Part shown: positions 1 through 4,809 of the stretch, piece after piece
How the letters are laid out: every line of letters starts with the position of its first letter
Position numbering within the stretch: the first letter of the stretch is position 1
Assembly: GCA_024276395.1 (NCBI GenBank)
Contig: JAJRXH010000182.1
Coordinates: forward strand, 1-5,279
Source: an archaeon
GTDB lineage: Archaea; Asgardarchaeota; Heimdallarchaeia; Hodarchaeales; S146-22
Direction: 5' to 3'
Length of the DNA: 5,279 nt
Program-made: the position numbers and the translations under genes
The notes under the pieces: generated by a model
Seen by the model: only the letters and a program-made list of their open reading frames with translations
Told to the model about the DNA's origin: nothing
Databases searched by the model: none

Positions 1-1098
1 AAGTTCAGACATATCTGCCTTTCTTAATAATTCTAAGATTTTTTCACCCTCTAATTCGAGTGTAACTTGCTTTATTTCTGCATTTAATCGATCATTGATC
101 CTTATTTCAGTTTCACTGACTTCGGTATCAAAATGAGTCAAAGCATTACTTAGCCTCTGGTATTCAGAATCCATCCGAGGATCCGGCTCTCCAGTTTCCT
201 GCAAGTTCAAGATAAGATCCTGTAACTCTGTTAACACGGATAAATTAATGCCTTTCATAAATTCGTTAACCTTGGGATCAGCTATTTCAGCTAAGATTTC
301 TGCTAAAGAGGTAATCGCTAAAATGCTATCTCGATTACGCGCATAAAAAGATAATATCTTCTCAGGAAGCAGCTTTTCAAAGGAAATTCTACTAGTGAGG
401 GGAACAATAACTACATTTGGGAGATCAGAACCATAATAATCATTTTCACTAATGAGGATAACTTCATCATAAATCTGTGAGTACTCCAATAATTCTTCAG
501 GACTTTCTAATTTAGCAACTTCACAAAAATCGACTACCTTAGTTTGCTCTAACTTTTGATGTGTTTTTTCGTCATCATACAAGATGACCCGAGATCCCAC
601 ATCGATGCTTGTTTCTTGTTCTTTCAAAGGTTTCAAGTTTACCAAGAGGGAATCTATCTCTTTCAGTCGGCTTTCAAGAGTAGATACCAGTCCCAAGCTT
701 GCTCGAGCATATCCCTGCCTTTGTTTTATCGTTGAGAGTGATGTTCTCGGTAAAGGAAACCATAAATATGTTTTCGATTTCGAATATAACGTATTTCCAA
801 ACTCAGAAATCATTTCACGACATTTAAGATATAATTGTTCAGCATCCTTAGTCTTGATAAATTCTTCAATGTTTTCTCCAGTTTCCATGGAATGTAATGT
901 CCTTACTAACCTCACCGCAAATTTCTCGCCAATTCCTTCAATTCTACTTAAGCCAGAGATGTCAGCGTCCCGAATGGCTTGTAGGGCATTTTCTTCCGTA
1001 CCATACACCTCAATGAGACGTTCGGCAGTAGACTGCCCAACGCCACGCAGCTGTCTAAGACTAGTTATTTTTTTGCATGATTCCGCTTCATTTGACAT
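1..1098 (-). CDS. Partial CDS (N-terminal 366 codons; C-terminus lies beyond window start). Tandem helix-hairpin-helix (HhH) DNA-binding protein of unknown overall function, possibly the N-terminal part of a larger DNA-repair protein.
   Basis: Absent from the ORF track because it has no stop in the window. Hand translation of the minus strand from the ATG at 1098-1096 stays open to position 1. I checked every plus-strand triplet in phase 1 for tta/cta/tca and found none. An in-frame stop lies just upstream at 1110-1108. GAGGG (1105-1109) sits 6 nt before the ATG. The N-terminus is MSNEAESCKKITSLRQLRGVGQSTAERLIEVYGTEENALQAIRDADISGLSRIEGIGEKFAVRLVRTL, with two Gly-hydrophobic-Gly hairpins (GVG, GIG) spaced as in (HhH)2 modules. 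The rest is charged and helical-looking. Confidence 0.75.
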   Translation of the reverse strand, partial: MSNEAESCKKITSLRQLRGVGQSTAERLIEVYGTEENALQAIRDADISGLSRIEGIGEKFAVRLVRTLHSMETGENIEEFIKTKDAEQLYLKCREMISEFGNTLYSKSKTYLWFPLPRTSLSTIKQRQGYARASLGLVSTLESRLKEIDSLLVNLKPLKEQETSIDVGSRVILYDDEKTHQKLEQTKVVDFCEVAKLESPEELLEYSQIYDEVILISENDYYGSDLPNVVIVPLTSRISFEKLLPEKILSFYARNRDSILAITSLAEILAEIADPKVNEFMKGINLSVLTELQDLILNLQETGEPDPRMDSEYQRLSNALTHFDTEVSETEIRINDRLNAEIKQVTLELEGEKILELLRKADMSEL

Positions 1099-1185: not shown

Positions 1186-2103
1186 TCAAGTAAAAAATGT
1201 GACCCTCTTTGGTGCAGTTTTTTCCATAAAGATCTTTAATTCTGCACGTGAACAATGTTCCGAATAAGGAATCCAAAATATTCCATTTTTAGGATCACTT
1301 TCATTAAGGACTGCCCATCCGGTTGGTATTATTTTGATCCCTGATTGAAGTCGTTTTCGATGTGGATATCGCCTCAGTATTTCAGGTTTTGAATGTTCTA
1401 ATGCTCTACGAGGCGCTAATAGGATGTTGGTGTCATCTGGATCTTCAGTAAACATTTCATAGCCAAGAGCTTCATAAACCTTCTTGATTTTTGGAGTGGC
1501 CCATATTTTTTGGTGAGTTAAACGATTCAACGCCTCAAACACTTTTTCCTTTCCAATGGTATAACACCCAATGAATTTATCATAAAACGGAAAATGTAAA
1601 GCTAGTTTCATAAGAGTATTGATGGCCTCTCGTTGTGGAGGAAATTGAAAGATTGGGCGATTATAGGTCCCATCAGCAATCATCAAGTCAACACCTTGTA
1701 TTTTTTCCAAGAAGTGATCCATGACCACTGGATCATATCTAAAATCACCAGTAAAGAATTCCCTTCGACCTTCAGACTCGAACAAAAACATTAATGACCC
1801 AATGCAATGGTTCGCCTCAAAAGCCGTGACATTAACACCATCAACTGAAAAAGAAGCATTTTCTTCAATGACGATGAAACGTTCAGAAGGTATCCCCTCT
1901 GTTAACTCAAGAATGACCTTTGTTTCTCGTGAACAAACTATCTTGGCTTCTGGGTAACTATTTAACAGTCTTTTTAGCCCTCTTGTATGATCACTATGTG
2001 CGTGACTCAGAAAAAAATATGGTTCTGTCTGTTTCAATAATCTTTTTTGCTTTGAGGGATCTGGAAATTCATCAGCCCAGAAGCGACCTAACATCAACGG
2101 CAT
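1186..2103 (-). CDS. Metallo-beta-lactamase fold beta-CASP nuclease, SNM1/PSO2/Artemis-like (DRMBL type); also comparable to bacterial ligase-associated exonucleases.
   Basis: The track ORF 1186..2136 starts at a TTG. The first ATG (2103) is preceded by GGGTGAT, which matches the GGUGAU core of the Shine-Dalgarno consensus, so 2103 is preferred. Motifs read from the translation: YFFLSHAHSDHTRGL (HxHxDH), FEANHCIGS (motif 3 His), FFTGDFRY (motif 4 Asp), MIADGTY (beta-CASP motif A), YTIGKEKVFEAL (SNM1-type IGKEK block), and C-terminal IPYSEHCSRAELKIF (motif C His; compare the eukaryotic PYSEHSS..EL block). Confidence 0.9.
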   Translation of the reverse strand: MPLMLGRFWADEFPDPSKQKRLLKQTEPYFFLSHAHSDHTRGLKRLLNSYPEAKIVCSRETKVILELTEGIPSERFIVIEENASFSVDGVNVTAFEANHCIGSLMFLFESEGRREFFTGDFRYDPVVMDHFLEKIQGVDLMIADGTYNRPIFQFPPQREAINTLMKLALHFPFYDKFIGCYTIGKEKVFEALNRLTHQKIWATPKIKKVYEALGYEMFTEDPDDTNILLAPRRALEHSKPEILRRYPHRKRLQSGIKIIPTGWAVLNESDPKNGIFWIPYSEHCSRAELKIFMEKTAPKRVTFFT

Positions 2104-2162
2104 TAAAATCACCCTAATCTCTAAGTTACAGTTCAATTAAATCATTAATAAATTTAATGGAT

Positions 2163-3077
2163 CTACAGGGCCCTTGCTCCCATTTTTTCAACATATAACG
2201 CAAGTAAATCACTCAACTTCCCTAAATACGTCTTATTAACCAAAAAAACATCAAAATCTACGATAGATAGTAAATTCTGATAAAATTTCCCCTTTTCAAA
2301 GTTTTTTCTTTTCTTGGCAACCATATTCAATGGAGTCCCTGTCATATAGGGATTAGCAGAGGGTAAAACTGTAATCGTTATCATCTTGTCATATATCGGG
2401 GTTTCGTGCACGTCACTCTCAATAGAAGGAATGACTCCATGACTGGACACCCGTAACATCTCAAGCCAATCATCAAGAGAGAGTTTACCTTGCAATATTA
2501 CTGGCAATCGATGTTTCACCAAGTTATCATCAACAAGGACCACAGCTGGATGAAGATGACCCAACAATACCTCCTCAGCCACAGCCAAATTTATTGGTGG
2601 AACATGACCATGAGCACAGCCAACCCGAGTTTCACCGAAAGCAAGTAAAGAACCTCGACTATCGTGCATCATCAATCCGCTAAATTCGTGTTTACGGAAC
2701 AACACATCATGATTACCAACAAGCAAATGTGACTGAACTCCGTTGGCATGTAACAAATCGAAAAACTCTCGCAATTCAGTAATTAACCATCGACTGTAAT
2801 GTGGCGTACGAATAAACGAAGCTCCACGTGATGTTGACTTATCATCATTAAAATGAGGGAAAGAGTGAATGAAATCTCCCAAAAGAACCAAGTAATGCAC
2901 GTTTTCTTGGTTGATCACTGCAAACAACGAGTTTAACAAGGCTCTCGACGAATCAAACGGCAGATACAGGCCACGCCGACGATATTCCGCATCATACCCA
3001 ACGTGAAGGTCTGCAACAAACAAGACCTTGCGACCTTCGAACTTACGAATTAGCCATTTCTCAAGTGTTCTTGTCAC
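2163..3077 (-). CDS. Calcineurin-like metallophosphoesterase, PdeM / archaeal SbcD-related (ligase-associated phosphoesterase-like) family.
   Basis: Track ORF with a GTG start at 3077 that overlaps the upstream gene's stop by 17 nt (3061-3077). Motifs: FVADLHVGY (DxH), LVLLGDFIHS (GDxxH), LLVGNHD, CAHGH, LGHLHP (GHxH), then RLPVI and ITVLPSANPYMTGTPLN. From memory, the ADLHxG...RG..lP start, GHxHP and lPaF..tGG tail are the pattern of PdeM-type enzymes. Confidence 0.85.
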   Translation of the reverse strand: MTRTLEKWLIRKFEGRKVLFVADLHVGYDAEYRRRGLYLPFDSSRALLNSLFAVINQENVHYLVLLGDFIHSFPHFNDDKSTSRGASFIRTPHYSRWLITELREFFDLLHANGVQSHLLVGNHDVLFRKHEFSGLMMHDSRGSLLAFGETRVGCAHGHVPPINLAVAEEVLLGHLHPAVVLVDDNLVKHRLPVILQGKLSLDDWLEMLRVSSHGVIPSIESDVHETPIYDKMITITVLPSANPYMTGTPLNMVAKKRKNFEKGKFYQNLLSIVDFDVFLVNKTYLGKLSDLLALYVEKMGARAL

Positions 3078-4278
3078 CTTCTTGTCCCACGGAAACGATT
3101 TGTTCTAGAAATTCCAATATTTTTTGCATTATTACTTCTAAAGTGACGCCAGACACTAAATTCAAGCCAGCTGCCCTCGAATGACCACCACCACTTCCTT
3201 CAAAGTGATTAAGGAGCCAAGGTAGCAAGTCTTTCGCCATGTTCACCCCAGTTCTCTCCTTAAAATAGGAAGAAGCTCTAATGCTCACTCTGGTTTCCTC
3301 TTTTCTCTGAGCAACTACCACGACAAGATCAGCTCCTAATGACAACAATGCCCTTGCTGCTGAAGATTCGTGAGAACTCACGTGAGTAAATAAGAGAATG
3401 AGATCATTAAGCATTCTTCGTCGCATTCGTTGTGCAGCCTTTATTCTGGCAATCTTCTCAGATGGTCCCATTTGCACCTGCAATAGATTCCGAGAGAGAG
3501 AATATACATCTGGATGCACGTCACAGAGATAACTCAGAACTGCGAACAAGCGTGAGGATGCTCGAGTTAAAAAACCCGAATCATAAAGAATGCCACAAGT
3601 CAATGCAATTGATACGGTCATGTTAATTTTGTATTCATTGATATATAATAAAGTCGCTATCATCTCTGACGTAGATCCACATATTGATGAATGAAGATAT
3701 AATGTAGCTTTCTCTGCAACATCATCGGAGTATTCATGATGATCAATGATGATGAAAGAAATTTCATCTTTTTCTCGCAAAATTTGCGCAGCGATGGGAC
3801 ATATCTCTAGGTTATTAGCATCCACTACTATTAGTAAAGATACATTTGAGAATTTAAGAGCATCTTTTGAATGAACTGTAATTCTTAGATAATTCATTAT
3901 TTGATCACTAATGACGCTTGCATCATCTAAAGTAAGAATGATATTACTCTTTTCCTTCAATATCTCCTTGATCAAGCATTCCATTCCTATCATTGCGCCA
4001 ATGGCATCAGGATCTGCCTGCTGATGCGTTGTAATTATAATCGTTCCTTTAGAAAGGCTCTTTTCTTGCAAAAGTAGCCATCTCAAGTTCTCAAGAAATT
4101 CTTCCATTGTTTTTGTTTCCAATTTCCCTTTATCACCATTCGTTGTCAGTTCATTGTACAATATAACTCTAATTTTAAACGAGATGAAACATTCATTTTT
4201 TTCTACAGCCTCACAAATAAACGCAAACCAACTAATTTCAAGATAATTTTGACTTGATCCATTTATAACACTGTTCAA
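3061..4278 (-). CDS. DHH/DHHA1 family phosphoesterase (RecJ-like / NrnA-like nuclease); start codon uncertain.
   Basis: Track ORF. Motifs: TTHQQADPDAIGAM (DHH motif I), LIVVDANN (II), FIIIDHHEY (III, DHH), CGILYDSGFL (IV), GSGGGHSRAAGL (DHHA1 GGGH). The 4278 start is a TTG. The first ATG is at 4107 (M58, MEEFLENL...) and puts motif I about 27 aa from the N-terminus, as in NrnA-like proteins. However, the 57 upstream codons stay open in AT-rich DNA, which argues they are coding. Confidence 0.85.
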   Translation of the reverse strand: MNSVINGSSQNYLEISWFAFICEAVEKNECFISFKIRVILYNELTTNGDKGKLETKTMEEFLENLRWLLLQEKSLSKGTIIITTHQQADPDAIGAMIGMECLIKEILKEKSNIILTLDDASVISDQIMNYLRITVHSKDALKFSNVSLLIVVDANNLEICPIAAQILREKDEISFIIIDHHEYSDDVAEKATLYLHSSICGSTSEMIATLLYINEYKINMTVSIALTCGILYDSGFLTRASSRLFAVLSYLCDVHPDVYSLSRNLLQVQMGPSEKIARIKAAQRMRRRMLNDLILLFTHVSSHESSAARALLSLGADLVVVVAQRKEETRVSIRASSYFKERTGVNMAKDLLPWLLNHFEGSGGGHSRAAGLNLVSGVTLEVIMQKILEFLEQIVSVGQEGDKNT

Positions 4279-4554
4279 GCGAACTATTCTACCATTTAAT
4301 CATCAAGTTAGCATTTGACTGTTCTTGAAGAAATATGGTTCTTTTTCATTGAATAGATTTTGATTATTTGATACATTTTACAGAAATTCGGCCATAATAC
4401 ATTCACGAGTCCTCGCAAAGATTGAACCACGAAAATTAACTAAACCTTATATCTAAAGGTTTCATACAATGAAACGTCCACGTGGGAATGTTTTTATCGA
4501 ACCTTTCCATCAATGAAAATCCCACGACCAAGAAGGTGCAACATTTCCATTCTC

Positions 4555-4570
4555 GCAAGGCTTTTATAAA
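4555..4570 (+). promoter_or_regulatory. Archaeal-type promoter candidate for the 5S precursor: purine-rich BRE-like GCAAGG followed by TATA box TTTTATAAA.
   Basis: gcaaggcttttataaa read at 4555-4570. A start about 22-27 nt downstream of the TATA box would fall near 4590-4596, just before the first leader nucleotides that pair with the trailer (4596 onward). Confidence 0.5.
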
Positions 4571-4595
4571 GATCCCCCCAGAGTGTTACATGTCA

Positions 4596-4614
4596 AACAA
4601 GAAAGAGACGCGTG
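4596..4614 (+). other. Leader arm of the precursor processing stem.
   Basis: GAGACGCGTG (4605-4614) is the perfect reverse complement of CACGCGTCTC (4777-4786). Weaker outer pairing: 4600-4604 with 4801-4805 and 4596-4598 with 4807-4809. Confidence 0.7.
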
Positions 4615-4617
4615 AAA

Positions 4618-4631
4618 GGGTGCCGGAGGTT
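4618..4631 (+). other. Leader-side strand of the bulge-helix-bulge-like motif: GGGTG outer helix, CCGG central helix, AG(G) bulge, GTT inner helix. Predicted cut at 4628|4629.
   Basis: Base pairs read by hand: 4618-4622 with 4755-4751; 4623-4626 with 4747-4744; 4629-4631 with 4743-4741. Confidence 0.65.
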
Positions 4632-4749
4632 AAGCCCGCCGCCGCCTGGCAGAGTACTGCGGTGCGAGAGCCCGCGGGAAACGTCGGGTGTCGACCCTCG
4701 GGTCGGCCATAGGGGCGGGGCAACACCCGGTCTCATACCGAACCCGGAA
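4629..4749 (+). rRNA. rrf: Circularly permuted 5S rRNA gene: 3' half 4629-4696, CUCG cap 4697-4700, 5' half 4701-4749.
   Basis: The segment 4701-4749, GGTCGGCCATAGGGGCGGGGCAACACCCGGTCTCATACCGAACCCGGAA, matches the archaeal 5S 5' portion: helix I 5' strand, AUAG loop A, helix II, and helix III/loop C. The segment 4629-4696, GTTAAGCCCGCCGCCGCCTGGCAGAGTACTGCGGTGCGAGAGCCCGCGGGAAACGTCGGGTGTCGACC, matches the 3' portion: GUUAAGCC, helix II 3' strand, AGUAC loop E, the helix IV hairpin with CGAGAG, GGGAAAC, helix V, and helix I 3' strand. Supporting pairings: helix I 4690-4696/4701-4707; helix II 4634-4640/4714-4721 with one bulged G; helix IV 4657-4662/4672-4677; helix V 4645-4650/4683-4688. Confidence 0.85.
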
Positions 4750-4755
4750 ACACCC
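4741..4755 (+). other. Trailer-side strand of the bulge-helix-bulge-like motif: AAC inner helix, CCGG central helix, AAA 3-nt bulge, CACCC outer helix. Predicted cut at 4749|4750.
   Basis: Same pairings as the leader-side feature. The trailer side is a canonical helix / 4-bp helix / 3-nt bulge / helix half-site. Confidence 0.7.
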
Positions 4756-4769
4756 GAGGTTGCGACCTT
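4756..4769 (+). other. Small trailer hairpin, GAGGT-UGCG-ACCTT (5 bp including one G-U, UNCG-type tetraloop).
   Basis: Read directly: 4756-4760 pairs with 4769-4765, loop 4761-4764. It lies between the BHB outer helix and the 10-bp clamp. Confidence 0.4.
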
Positions 4770-4776
4770 CAGAATG

Positions 4777-4809
4777 CACGCGTCTCGGACAATGTCCTCT
4801 TTTCTCGTT
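4777..4809 (+). other. Trailer arm of the precursor processing stem, interrupted by a GGAC-AAT-GTCC mini-hairpin (4787-4797).
   Basis: CACGCGTCTC (4777-4786) pairs perfectly with 4605-4614. 4801-4805 and 4807-4809 can pair with 4600-4604 and 4596-4598. Confidence 0.65.

What the first reader, a model, noticed from the sequence alone, without database searches (positions are those of the whole stretch)
4629..4749. Circularly permuted 5S rRNA gene: the 3' half is encoded upstream of the 5' half
Seen in sequence: every conserved block of an archaeal 5S rRNA is present exactly once, but in rotated order. GUUAAGCC, the helix II 3' strand, loop E, helices IV and V, and the helix I 3' strand occupy 4629-4696. 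The helix I 5' strand, AUAG, helix II, and the helix III/loop C block CCGAACCCGGAA follow at 4701-4749. Re-joining them as 4701-4749 plus 4629-4696 gives a 117-nt molecule with all five helices base-paired, and nothing is duplicated or missing. Established knowledge: permuted genes rescued by RNA circularisation are known for tRNAs (Cyanidioschyzon merolae, Thermofilum) and for SRP RNA in Thermoproteus, and permuted 5S rRNAs have been reported in some mitochondria. I know of no description of a permuted chromosomal 5S rRNA gene in an archaeon. Inference: this is the functional 5S gene of this AT-rich archaeon.
Basis: partly seen in the sequence, partly recalled or inferred. Interest (0 to 1): 0.95.

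Follow-up and report, generated by a model that had tools for sequence, protein, structure and literature searches.

The report
Permuted 5S rRNA gene in Asgard archaeon
An uncultured Asgard-related archaeon encodes its 5S ribosomal RNA with the back half ahead of the front half, flanked by a textbook splicing-enzyme signal that should cut out the piece and join its ends into a normal, probably circular, 5S RNA; I found no earlier report of this for a 5S rRNA gene in a cellular genome.

Summary
Window 4629-4696 matches Rfam 5S model positions 52-114 and 4701-4749 matches positions 6-51. The two halves abut at model 51|52 but lie in swapped genomic order. Rejoined, they fold as a canonical five-helix 5S and align end to end with normal 5S genes.

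[quoted passage not shown] Its predicted cleavage sites, G4628|G4629 and A4749|A4750, are exactly the ends that must be ligated to recreate GGAA-GUUAAG.

The same unit sits at the syntenic place in two further lineages, where neighbouring proteins are only 59-76% identical. It comprises a TATA promoter, outer stem, BHB, 3' half, CUCG, 5' half, trailer hairpin and T-run. The 121-nt core is 94-97% identical between lineages, downstream DNA 27-48%. Seven base pairs carry compensatory double changes, and no substitution breaks a 5S helix.

Best reading: a functional permuted 5S gene matured by the tRNA splicing endonuclease and RtcB ligase, like Thermoproteus SRP RNA.

Untested: RNA evidence, and whether a collinear 5S copy exists elsewhere in these genomes. 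Pattern scans of three public collections and the literature search found no other case.

The parts
4545..4570 (+). Promoter block TTCCATTCTCGCAAGGCTTTTATAAA, with an archaeal TATA box TTTATAAA at 4563-4570. The transcription start is inferred at about 4590-4598.
   Evidence: Region 4545-4596 is 87-90% identical in three lineages, while DNA further upstream does not align. Reading it as a TATA box, and the start position, rest on established knowledge of archaeal promoters (inference).
4605..4614 (+). Outer processing stem, 5' strand GAGACGCGUG. It pairs with 4777-4786.
   Evidence: A 10-bp perfect helix in the window. It is kept in L009 and L015 with one double compensatory change (A-U to G-C) and one G-C to G-U change.
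4618..4622 (+). BHB outer helix h, leader strand GGGUG. It pairs with CACCC at 4751-4755.
   Evidence: U4621-A4752 becomes C-G in L009 and L015. RNAalifold also predicts this helix de novo.
4623..4626 (+). BHB central 4-bp helix H, leader strand CCGG. It pairs with CCGG at 4744-4747.
   Evidence: Read from the sequence and invariant in all three lineages. The fold constrained to the BHB is 1.9 kcal/mol above the MFE.
4627..4629 (+). BHB bulge 1, A G | G. The predicted cut lies between G4628 and G4629, so G4629 becomes the first base of the excised RNA.
   Evidence: Geometry read from the sequence. The rule 'cut after the second bulge base' is derived from the pre-tRNA BHB description in PMC4090602.
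4629..4696 (+). 3' half of 5S rRNA: the helix III 3' end (GUU), helix II 3' strand, helix V, loop E, helix IV and helix I 3' strand.
   Evidence: Rfam RF00001 positions 52-114, 22.7 bits, E 0.0034, 5'-truncated. Fold.
4697..4700 (+). Linker CUCG joining the canonical 3' end to the canonical 5' end. It caps helix I as a tetraloop.
   Evidence: Invariant in the three lineages.
4701..4749 (+). 5' half of 5S rRNA: helix I 5' strand, loop A (CCAUAG), helix II 5' strand, and helix III with loop C, ending in ...CCGGAA.
   Evidence: Rfam RF00001 positions 6-51, 31.4 bits, E 1.3e-5, 3'-truncated. Fold.
4748..4750 (+). BHB bulge 2, A A | A. The predicted cut lies between A4749 and A4750, so A4749 becomes the last base of the excised RNA.
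   Evidence: A clean 3-nt bulge between H and h. The third bulge base is discarded and varies (A to U in L009), while the two retained bases are invariant.
4751..4755 (+). BHB outer helix h, trailer strand CACCC.
4756..4769 (+). Trailer hairpin GAGGU-UGCG-ACCUU.
   Evidence: Three of its 5 pairs show double compensatory changes across lineages, and the loop UGCG is invariant. Its role is unknown.
4777..4786 (+). Outer processing stem, 3' strand CACGCGUCUC.
4797..4809 (+). T-rich stretch CTCTTTTCTCGTT, the likely archaeal oligo-T terminator.
   Evidence: A CTCTTTTCT-like run is kept in all three lineages, while surrounding DNA is 27-48% identical. Terminator function is inferred.

Best explanation
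This is a functional, circularly permuted 5S rRNA gene.

1. One short transcript of about 210 nt is made, from the TATA promoter at about 4563 to the T-run at about 4800. It carries, in order: leader, 5S 3' half, CUCG, 5S 5' half, trailer.
2. Leader and trailer pair through an outer 10-bp stem plus helix h. Together with the CCGG at the end of the 5' half, they form a bulge-helix-bulge motif.
3. The tRNA splicing endonuclease (EndA) cuts after the second base of each bulge, at G4628|G4629 and A4749|A4750. It handles the 121-nt 5S segment as it would an intron or a pre-rRNA.
4. The RtcB ligase joins A4749 to G4629, recreating the universal ...CCGGAA-GUUAAGCC... strand of helix III. The product is a covalently continuous 5S with all five helices.
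5. In the resulting circle, helix I is capped by CUCG. I think the circle itself is most likely the mature ribosomal 5S (about 60% given ligation). The alternative is re-opening in or near the CUCG linker to give a conventional linear 5S.

Shown: the gene order, the fold, the BHB geometry, and the conservation and covariation. Inferred: transcription limits, the enzymes, ligation and the final topology.
For: - The halves match complementary parts of RF00001 in swapped order, and the rotated 117-mer folds as 5S and aligns collinearly with canonical 5S genes.
- BHB motif: a 4-bp H helix, a clean AAA bulge, an AGG bulge and a 5-bp h helix.
- The 'cut after bulge base 2' rule follows from PMC4090602. 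It predicts exactly the two ends needed to rebuild GGAA|GUUAAG.
- The BHB-constrained fold is only 1.9 kcal/mol above the MFE at 37 C.
- The same unit lies at the syntenic site upstream of the DHH gene in L009/L011 and L015/L016. In these lineages DHH is 59-64% identical to the window's protein and the MBL protein 75-76%.
- Identity profile between lineages: promoter 87-90%, 121-nt core 94-97%, trailer 56-64%, downstream 27-48%.
- With the proposed structure 97.2% of cells pair, against 30-45% when partners are slid.
- Seven pairs have changes on both sides:
  - helix II G-C to A-U, with a G-U intermediate in L015;
  - helix IV G-C to A-U;
  - helix h U-A to C-G;
  - outer stem A-U to G-C;
  - three pairs in the trailer hairpin.
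- All mature 5S helices stay 100% paired.
- Precedents: the Thermoproteus permuted SRP RNA uses a leader/trailer BHB, is cut by recombinant endonuclease, and functions as a circle (PMC4731332; PMC10085705).
- Circular 16S and 23S transcripts have been seen in Asgard archaea, so the machinery is active there (PMC12918454).
- E. coli survives with the native 5S ends joined by a 4-nt connector (PMC7283268).
Against: - No RNA data. The junction read A4749-G4629 has not been seen.
- Bulge 1 is not closed by a solid inner helix. Only U4630-A4742 and U4631-A4741 are possible, with C4743 opposite, so that side of the BHB is relaxed.
- The palindromic CCGG occurs three times (4623-26, 4727-30, 4744-47). 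Both the single-sequence MFE and the RNAalifold consensus pair the leader CCGG with 4727-30, not with 4744-47. The BHB is therefore a near-optimal alternative conformer, not the predicted ground state.
- H and both bulges are invariant, so covariation cannot confirm H itself.
- There are only three distinct sequences.
- I could not scan the rest of these genomes for a collinear 5S.
- Published work describes archaeal 5S maturation as endonucleolytic trimming without a circularisation step (PMC12918454; PMC10515664).
Confidence: 0.8

Rival explanations
1. Same gene and same BHB excision and ligation, but the circle is only an intermediate. It is re-opened in or next to the CUCG linker, as permuted tRNA precursors are, to give a conventional linear 5S of about 117 nt with normal helix I ends.
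For: This is how permuted tRNA genes are expressed (PMC10085705; PMC4267664). Circular pre-16S/23S rRNAs are classically re-linearised (PMC12918454; PMC10515664).
Against: The linker is only 4 nt, sits in a G+C-rich helix, and lacks the A/U-rich motif used for 5S and 16S end cleavage in Methanococcus. No tRNA-like shape is present for RNase P or tRNase Z. The linker is invariant in three lineages. A 7-bp helix plus tetraloop occupies about the space of the 9-bp consensus helix I. A 4-nt connector across the 5S ends is tolerated in E. coli, and the Thermoproteus SRP RNA stays circular.
Confidence: 0.3
2. The RNA is never ligated. It works as a linear, permuted 5S whose ends lie in the helix III 3' strand (a nick between A4749 and G4629), after trimming of leader and trailer. 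This would be comparable to the brown-algal mitochondrial 5S, which is permuted in the final product.
For: Permuted final products exist for mitochondrial 5S (PMC4267664). A nick in one strand between two stacked helix III segments could be tolerated, because the other strand (4722-4730) is continuous.
Against: The flanks form a BHB whose cuts fall exactly at the two bases to be joined. The cut ends are the substrate of RtcB, which joins exons and circularises excised introns. The leader/trailer pairing is maintained by compensatory changes, which is unnecessary for simple trimming.
Confidence: 0.08
3. The locus is a non-functional or redundant relic of a tandem 5S duplication, and a normal collinear 5S gene elsewhere supplies the ribosome.
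For: I could not examine the rest of these genomes. The leader's CCGGAG looks like a remnant of an upstream 5S copy, consistent with origin by tandem duplication.
Against: The core is 94-97% identical between lineages whose flanking DNA is 27-48% identical and whose DHH proteins are 59-64% identical. Every substitution inside 5S helices preserves pairing, including two double compensatory changes linking the two halves. Promoter, BHB and stems are conserved. No canonical 5S was found in the roughly 65 kb of distinct contigs fetched from this clade.
Confidence: 0.07
4. The arrangement is an assembly artefact: a mis-joined or collapsed tandem 5S repeat.
For: The window is a short 5.3-kb metagenomic contig.
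Against: The same order, with lineage-specific substitutions, occurs in independent assemblies from different samples and pipelines (ENA, NCBI, Logan), inside contigs of up to 28 kb with conserved gene neighbours.
Confidence: 0.01

Closest known systems
Permuted SRP RNA gene of Thermoproteus tenax and T. uzoniensis (Plagens et al. 2015, PMC4731332)
   Same: The 3' part is encoded upstream of the 5' part in one transcript. Leader and trailer form a BHB at the site to be joined. The tRNA splicing endonuclease cuts, and RtcB is proposed to ligate. The product is a functional circular RNA.
   Different: The RNA here is a ribosomal RNA (5S), not SRP RNA. The host is an Asgard-related lineage, not a crenarchaeon. 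Here everything beyond the sequence is inferred. There, circular junction reads and in-vitro cleavage were shown.
Permuted tRNA genes (Cyanidioschyzon merolae; Thermofilum pendens, PMC3218864; review PMC3978253)
   Same: Swapped halves with a short intervening linker, a BHB formed by the flanks, and a circular RNA intermediate.
   Different: tRNA circles are re-opened at the linker to give normal ends (RNase P and tRNase Z: own knowledge). No comparable end-maker is evident for a 4-nt CUCG cap on 5S helix I.
BHB excision and circularisation of archaeal pre-16S/23S rRNA, including circular or RNA-level permuted 23S (Pyrococcus furiosus PMC7758197; PMC12918454)
   Same: A processing stem formed by leader and trailer carries a BHB. 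The excised rRNA is circularised. Circular 23S can be the ribosomal form.
   Different: Those genes are collinear, and ligation joins the natural ends. Here the gene is permuted and ligation repairs an internal break in helix III. 5S is stated not to use this route in studied archaea.
Permuted mitochondrial 5S rRNA of brown algae and other stramenopiles (Valach et al. 2014, PMC4267664; Rfam-type model mtPerm-5S)
   Same: A 5S whose conventional ends are closed into a hairpin and whose gene order differs from the standard.
   Different: There the ends move only to the alpha/gamma junction. The product itself stays permuted, and no splicing or ligation is involved. It is an organelle genome.
Engineered cp5S in E. 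coli (Huang et al. 2020, PMC7283268)
   Same: The native 5S ends are joined by a 4-nt connector, and the ribosomes are active.
   Different: It is artificial, bacterial, and fused into 23S rRNA.

Membership tests
5S rRNA (Rfam RF00001) | A contiguous match to the covariance model at or above the gathering score (38 bits) | tested here: not met
   The native locus scores 21.8 bits, E 0.45, with only the 5' half truly aligned. The L009 and L015 copies are not reported at E<=1. This is expected for a permuted gene.
5S rRNA (Rfam RF00001) | All model regions present once (helices I-V, loops A, C, E) when gene order is ignored | tested here: met
   4704-4749 matches model 6-51 (31.4 bits) and 4629-4693 matches model 52-114 (22.7 bits). 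The sum is 54 bits without credit for the pairs split between the halves.
5S rRNA (Rfam RF00001) | Three-way-junction secondary structure supported by covariation | tested here: met
   The rotated fold has helices I-V. The 5S helices are 100% paired in three lineages, with double compensatory changes in helices II and IV and G-U/Watson-Crick switches in helices I and V.
5S rRNA (Rfam RF00001) | [quoted passage not shown] | not testable with these tools
   This needs ribosome purification or cryo-EM.
Substrate of the archaeal splicing endonuclease (bulge-helix-bulge motif) | Central helix of exactly 4 bp | tested here: met
   C4623-G4626 pairs with C4744-G4747. It is invariant in three lineages.
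Substrate of the archaeal splicing endonuclease (bulge-helix-bulge motif) | Two 3-nt bulges on opposite strands, each 3' of its H strand | tested here: inconclusive
   The AAA bulge (4748-4750) is clean. AGG (4627-4629) is followed only by two possible A-U pairs with an unpaired C4743 opposite, so that side is relaxed. PMC4731332 defines a BHB as a central 4-bp helix flanked by 'at least one' 3-nt bulge.
Substrate of the archaeal splicing endonuclease (bulge-helix-bulge motif) | A flanking helix outside the bulges, maintained in evolution | tested here: met
   h is GGGUG:CACCC in the window and GGCG:CGCC in L009 and L015, a U-A to C-G change. It is backed by the 10-bp outer stem, which has its own compensatory change.
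Substrate of the archaeal splicing endonuclease (bulge-helix-bulge motif) | Predicted cuts give biologically sensible ends | tested here: met
   Cuts after bulge base 2 give G4629 and A4749. Joined, they read CCGGAA-GUUAAGCC, as in canonical 5S genes.
Substrate of the archaeal splicing endonuclease (bulge-helix-bulge motif) | The motif is the thermodynamically preferred fold | tested here: not met
   The MFE and the RNAalifold consensus pair the leader CCGG with 4727-4730 instead. The BHB conformer is 1.9 kcal/mol less stable. This feature is not a strict requirement of the family.
Substrate of the archaeal splicing endonuclease (bulge-helix-bulge motif) | Actual cleavage by EndA and ligation by RtcB | not testable with these tools
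   This needs an enzyme assay or RNA-seq.
Permuted non-coding RNA genes expressed through RNA circularisation | 3' part upstream of 5' part on the same strand within one transcription unit | tested here: met
   The order is shown. A single conserved promoter lies upstream and a T-run downstream, with only a 4-nt linker between the halves. The unit boundaries are inferred.
Permuted non-coding RNA genes expressed through RNA circularisation | Circular RNA carrying the repaired junction | not testable with these tools
   No transcriptome data are accessible.
Permuted non-coding RNA genes expressed through RNA circularisation | No collinear gene copy in the genome | not tested
   Only about 65 kb of distinct contigs from this clade could be fetched, and none holds a canonical 5S.

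The most novel reading that the evidence does not exclude
In this Asgard-related lineage the permuted gene is the only source of 5S rRNA. The ribosome then carries a covalently closed circular 5S (121 nt, helix I capped by CUCG) whose continuity depends on the tRNA splicing endonuclease and RtcB. It would be the first obligatorily spliced and ligated ribosomal RNA encoded by a permuted gene in a cellular genome.
Probability: 0.45. Interest if true: 0.92.

Novelty: new variant of a known kind. Interest (0 to 1): 0.85.

Why it matters
5S rRNA is regarded as the one archaeal rRNA that does not pass through BHB cleavage and circularisation. Its gene is also considered trivially recognisable in archaeal, bacterial and nuclear genomes.

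Here a 5S gene is invisible to the standard Rfam search and can only give a continuous 5S RNA if the tRNA-splicing machinery repairs it. This has several consequences:

- It extends gene permutation rescued by RNA ligation from tRNA and SRP RNA to a core ribosomal RNA.
- It makes ribosome biogenesis in this lineage dependent on EndA and RtcB in a new way.
- It predicts a circular 5S inside a ribosome.
- It offers a simple explanation for MAGs that appear to lack a 5S gene, and a reason to add permuted models to annotation pipelines.
- The host belongs to the Asgard radiation, so it also bears on the diversity of rRNA processing near the root of eukaryotes.

Tried and rejected
- A degenerate pattern for the permuted order (GTTAAGCC..CAYAG..GAACCCGGAA) was scanned in three collections. 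Genome contigs gave 8 hits, metagenome contigs 6 hits and viral contigs 0 hits. Inspection showed only chance matches or a 23S 3' end followed by a normal 5S. No further permuted 5S was found, and the window's own genome and its relatives are not in those collections.
- A phmmer search of 1.84 billion representative proteins used the spurious 72-aa ORF that spans both halves, hoping gene callers had translated other permuted 5S loci. It returned one irrelevant low-complexity hit.
- The nearest outgroup loci (Hodarchaeales-like L024-L027) have different synteny and no 5S beside the DHH gene, so the ancestral state at this locus could not be seen.
- The fourth clade member (P0002 lineage; L017, L028) has contigs that stop short of the 5S site.
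- The exact look-up of the window's own protein is not on record, so the source assembly could not be named. Accession numbers gave no literature hits.
- Rfam hits to C/D-box snoRNA families at 415-476 were rejected as chance. The element lies inside the MutS-like ORF and its boxes are not conserved.
- I did not build a custom covariance model. No further sequence collection could be searched with it, and the two truncated Rfam hits already answer the rotated-model question.

Full report
**1. What is in the sequence**

Region 4600-4800 is a 63-68% G+C island in DNA of about 30-35% G+C. A whole-window Rfam scan gives only a sub-threshold 5S hit: 21.8 bits against a gathering score of 38. In that hit 4699-4750 aligns convincingly to the 5' half of the model and the remainder is forced.

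Each block was then scanned on its own, so that Infernal could report truncated matches:
- 4629-4693 matches RF00001 positions 52-114 (22.7 bits, E 0.0034, 5'-truncated).
- 4704-4749 matches positions 6-51 (31.4 bits, E 1.3e-5, 3'-truncated).

The model is therefore covered once, broken at 51|52, with the 3' part encoded upstream. The rejoined 117-mer (4701-4749 + 4629-4696) folds into the canonical three-way junction with helices I-V (-57 kcal/mol). It aligns end to end with two ordinary 5S genes found in passing, which score 74-79 bits in Rfam.

**2.

- **Promoter.** Upstream lies TTCCATTCTCGCAAGGCTTTTATAAA (4545-4570), with an archaeal-type TATA box.
- **Terminator.** Downstream lies a T-run (4797-4809).
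- **Outer stem.** The flanks pair as GAGACGCGUG 4605-4614 with CACGCGUCUC 4777-4786.
- **Helix h.** GGGUG 4618-4622 pairs with CACCC 4751-4755.
- **Central helix H.** Directly adjoining h, the leader's CCGG 4623-4626 can pair with CCGG 4744-4747 at the end of the 5' half.
- **Bulges.** These pairings leave AAA 4748-4750 and AGG 4627-4629 as 3-nt bulges on opposite strands, each 3' of its H strand.

This is the bulge-helix-bulge geometry recognised by the archaeal tRNA splicing endonuclease. In pre-tRNA, the first two anticodon bases lie in the central 4-bp helix (PMC4090602). This places positions 36 and 37 in the bulge and puts the cut after the second bulge base. Applied here, the cuts fall at G4628|G4629 and A4749|A4750. 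The excised 121-nt piece is exactly '3' half - CUCG - 5' half'. Joining its ends writes ...CCGGAA-GUUAAGCC..., the sequence found uninterrupted in canonical 5S genes.

In splicing terms, the leader and trailer are the exons and the 5S is the intron. It is also the layout by which 16S and 23S rRNA are excised and circularised.

**3. Thermodynamics and a caveat**

The BHB is not the predicted ground state. CCGG is palindromic and occurs three times (4623-26, 4727-30, 4744-47). Both the single-sequence MFE and the RNAalifold consensus pair the leader CCGG with 4727-30. In that fold the leader imitates the missing 3' strand of helix III. A fold constrained to h+H is 1.9 kcal/mol above the MFE at 37 C (-91.3 vs -93.2), with similar gaps at 60 and 80 C. 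The BHB is therefore an accessible alternative conformer.

Bulge 1 is closed on its inner side only by two possible A-U pairs, so that side of the motif is relaxed.

**4. Relatives**

The neighbouring genes encode a DHH/DHHA1 phosphoesterase, a metallophosphoesterase and a DRMBL-type metallo-beta-lactamase.

- The MBL protein has three close relatives (75-76% identity). After these come only about 38-40% hits, named Hodarchaeales, Heimdallarchaeota, Thorarchaeota and Promethearchaeota.
- The DHH protein has two close relatives at 59-64% identity.
- The L15e protein of the clade drops from 91-92% within the clade to at most 67% in Hermod-, Baldr-, Hel-, Heimdall- and Hodarchaeota and in methanogens.

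The host is thus an isolated, sparsely sampled lineage, Asgard-affiliated by best named hits. The high G+C of its RNA against an A+T-rich genome suggests a thermophile (inference).

The syntenic contigs L009/L011 and L015/L016 carry the same unit, upstream of the DHH gene and on the opposite strand to it.

| Region | Identity between lineages |
|---|---|
| Promoter | 87-90% |
| 121-nt core | 94-97% |
| Trailer | 56-64% |
| Downstream DNA | 27-48% |

**5. Covariation**

With the proposed structure, 97.2% of cells form standard pairs, against 30-45% when partners are slid by 1-3 columns. The structure comprises the outer stem, h, the trailer hairpin and 5S helices I-V in permuted order. Seven pairs change on both sides; 3 of 500 shuffles reach that number of pairs and 0 of 500 reach the covariation score.

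Inside the 5S:
- Helix II G-C becomes A-U in L009, with G-U in L015.
- Helix IV G-C becomes A-U in L015.
- Helices I and V show G-U/Watson-Crick switches.
- No substitution breaks a pair.

Helix II joins the upstream half to the downstream half, so selection acts on the reassembled molecule.

Outside the 5S:
- h changes U-A to C-G.
- The outer stem changes A-U to G-C.
- A trailer hairpin (4756-4769, loop UGCG) has three compensatory pairs.
- H, the two retained bulge bases and the CUCG linker are invariant.
- The discarded third base of bulge 2 varies.

Three sequences are few, but the pattern is coherent.

**6. Mechanism**

Best explanation (0.8): a functional permuted 5S gene, with EndA cleavage at the BHB and RtcB ligation restoring the helix III strand.

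Supporting precedents:
- The permuted SRP RNA of Thermoproteus uses a leader/trailer BHB, is cut by recombinant endonuclease, and is active as a circle (PMC4731332; PMC10085705).
- Circular 16S and 23S transcripts occur in Asgard archaea (PMC12918454).

Final topology is open. I favour a mature circle, for these reasons:
- The linker is a 4-nt cap in a G+C-rich helix, with no A/U-rich cleavage motif of the kind used for 5S ends in Methanococcus.
- It is invariant in the three lineages.
- Seven base pairs plus a tetraloop fill about the space of the 9-bp consensus helix I.
- E. coli ribosomes tolerate a 4-nt connector across the 5S ends (PMC7283268).

The rivals are re-linearisation at the linker, an unligated linear permuted 5S, a redundant relic, and an assembly artefact. 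The last is excluded by the independent assemblies.

**7. Origin (inference)**

The leader's CCGGAG|G mimics CCGGAA|G of a canonical 5S. This fits the usual model for permuted genes: tandem duplication followed by loss of the outer halves. The BHB would either be inherited from an intron at position 49/50 or have evolved from the duplicated helix III strand.

**8. How rare, and is it known?**

Pattern scans for the permuted order found no other case in three collections:
- 185,579 species-representative genomes;
- 241 million JGI metagenome records;
- IMG/VR viral contigs.

Full-text searches returned no paper on a permuted archaeal or chromosomal 5S gene. A 2023 survey of natural RNA permutations lists 5S only for the mitochondrial case. 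That case is a different rearrangement with no ligation. A 2026 paper states that archaeal 5S, unlike 16S and 23S, is not processed through circularisation. Low-level circular 5S reads in Sulfolobus and Halobacterium come from collinear genes and are of uncertain meaning.

I rate it a new variant of a known kind: a known rescue mechanism applied to a new and central RNA.

**9. Limits**

No transcript data were available. I had no access to the remaining parts of these genomes, so a collinear copy cannot be excluded. There are only three distinct sequences. The enzymes are assigned by analogy.

Noticed in passing
L020 2535-2775 (also L003, L008, L021): The 5S gene downstream of the 23S in a Thermoplasmatota lineage seems to carry an insertion of about 125 nt after GGGAAACGU. 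The helix I 5' strand AAGGGUUUGACGG pairs with CUGUCAAGCCCUU about 230 nt downstream, while Rfam aligns only to 2650 with a broken helix I. It is reminiscent of the 108-nt insertion in Halococcus morrhuae 5S (own knowledge).
   Followed up: partly
window 4756-4769: A small trailer hairpin (GAGGU-UGCG-ACCUU) lies between the BHB and the outer stem. It keeps its pairing through three compensatory changes and has an invariant UGCG loop. Its role is unknown (a processing aid or protein site?).
   Followed up: partly
window 4623-4626, 4727-4730, 4744-4747: Three copies of the palindromic CCGG allow mutually exclusive folds. In one, the leader imitates the 3' strand of helix III (predicted MFE). In another, the BHB forms (1.9 kcal/mol higher). 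This is a possible co-transcriptional folding switch.
   Followed up: partly
window 415-476 (- strand): A C/D-box-sRNA-like element gives weak SNORD64 and SNORD50 hits (E 0.5-0.75). It lies inside the MutS-like coding region, and its C and D boxes are not conserved in L009, L016 or L017, so it is probably chance.
   Followed up: yes
window 1186-4278 (- strand); L009 7032-12205: A conserved gene string sits next to the 5S: DHH/DHHA1 phosphoesterase, metallophosphoesterase, SNM1/Apollo-type DRMBL nuclease, then a MutS_V/HHH_5 protein. It looks like a DNA-repair cluster. The DRMBL protein's next-best named hits after Asgard archaea and one candidate division KSB1 bacterium are eukaryotic Apollo and Artemis.
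   Followed up: no
L024 3628-3850 and L025 3629-4176: The Hodarchaeales-like outgroup loci hold several long tRNA genes (about 100-130 nt, so probably intron-containing) clustered upstream of SRP54.
   Followed up: no
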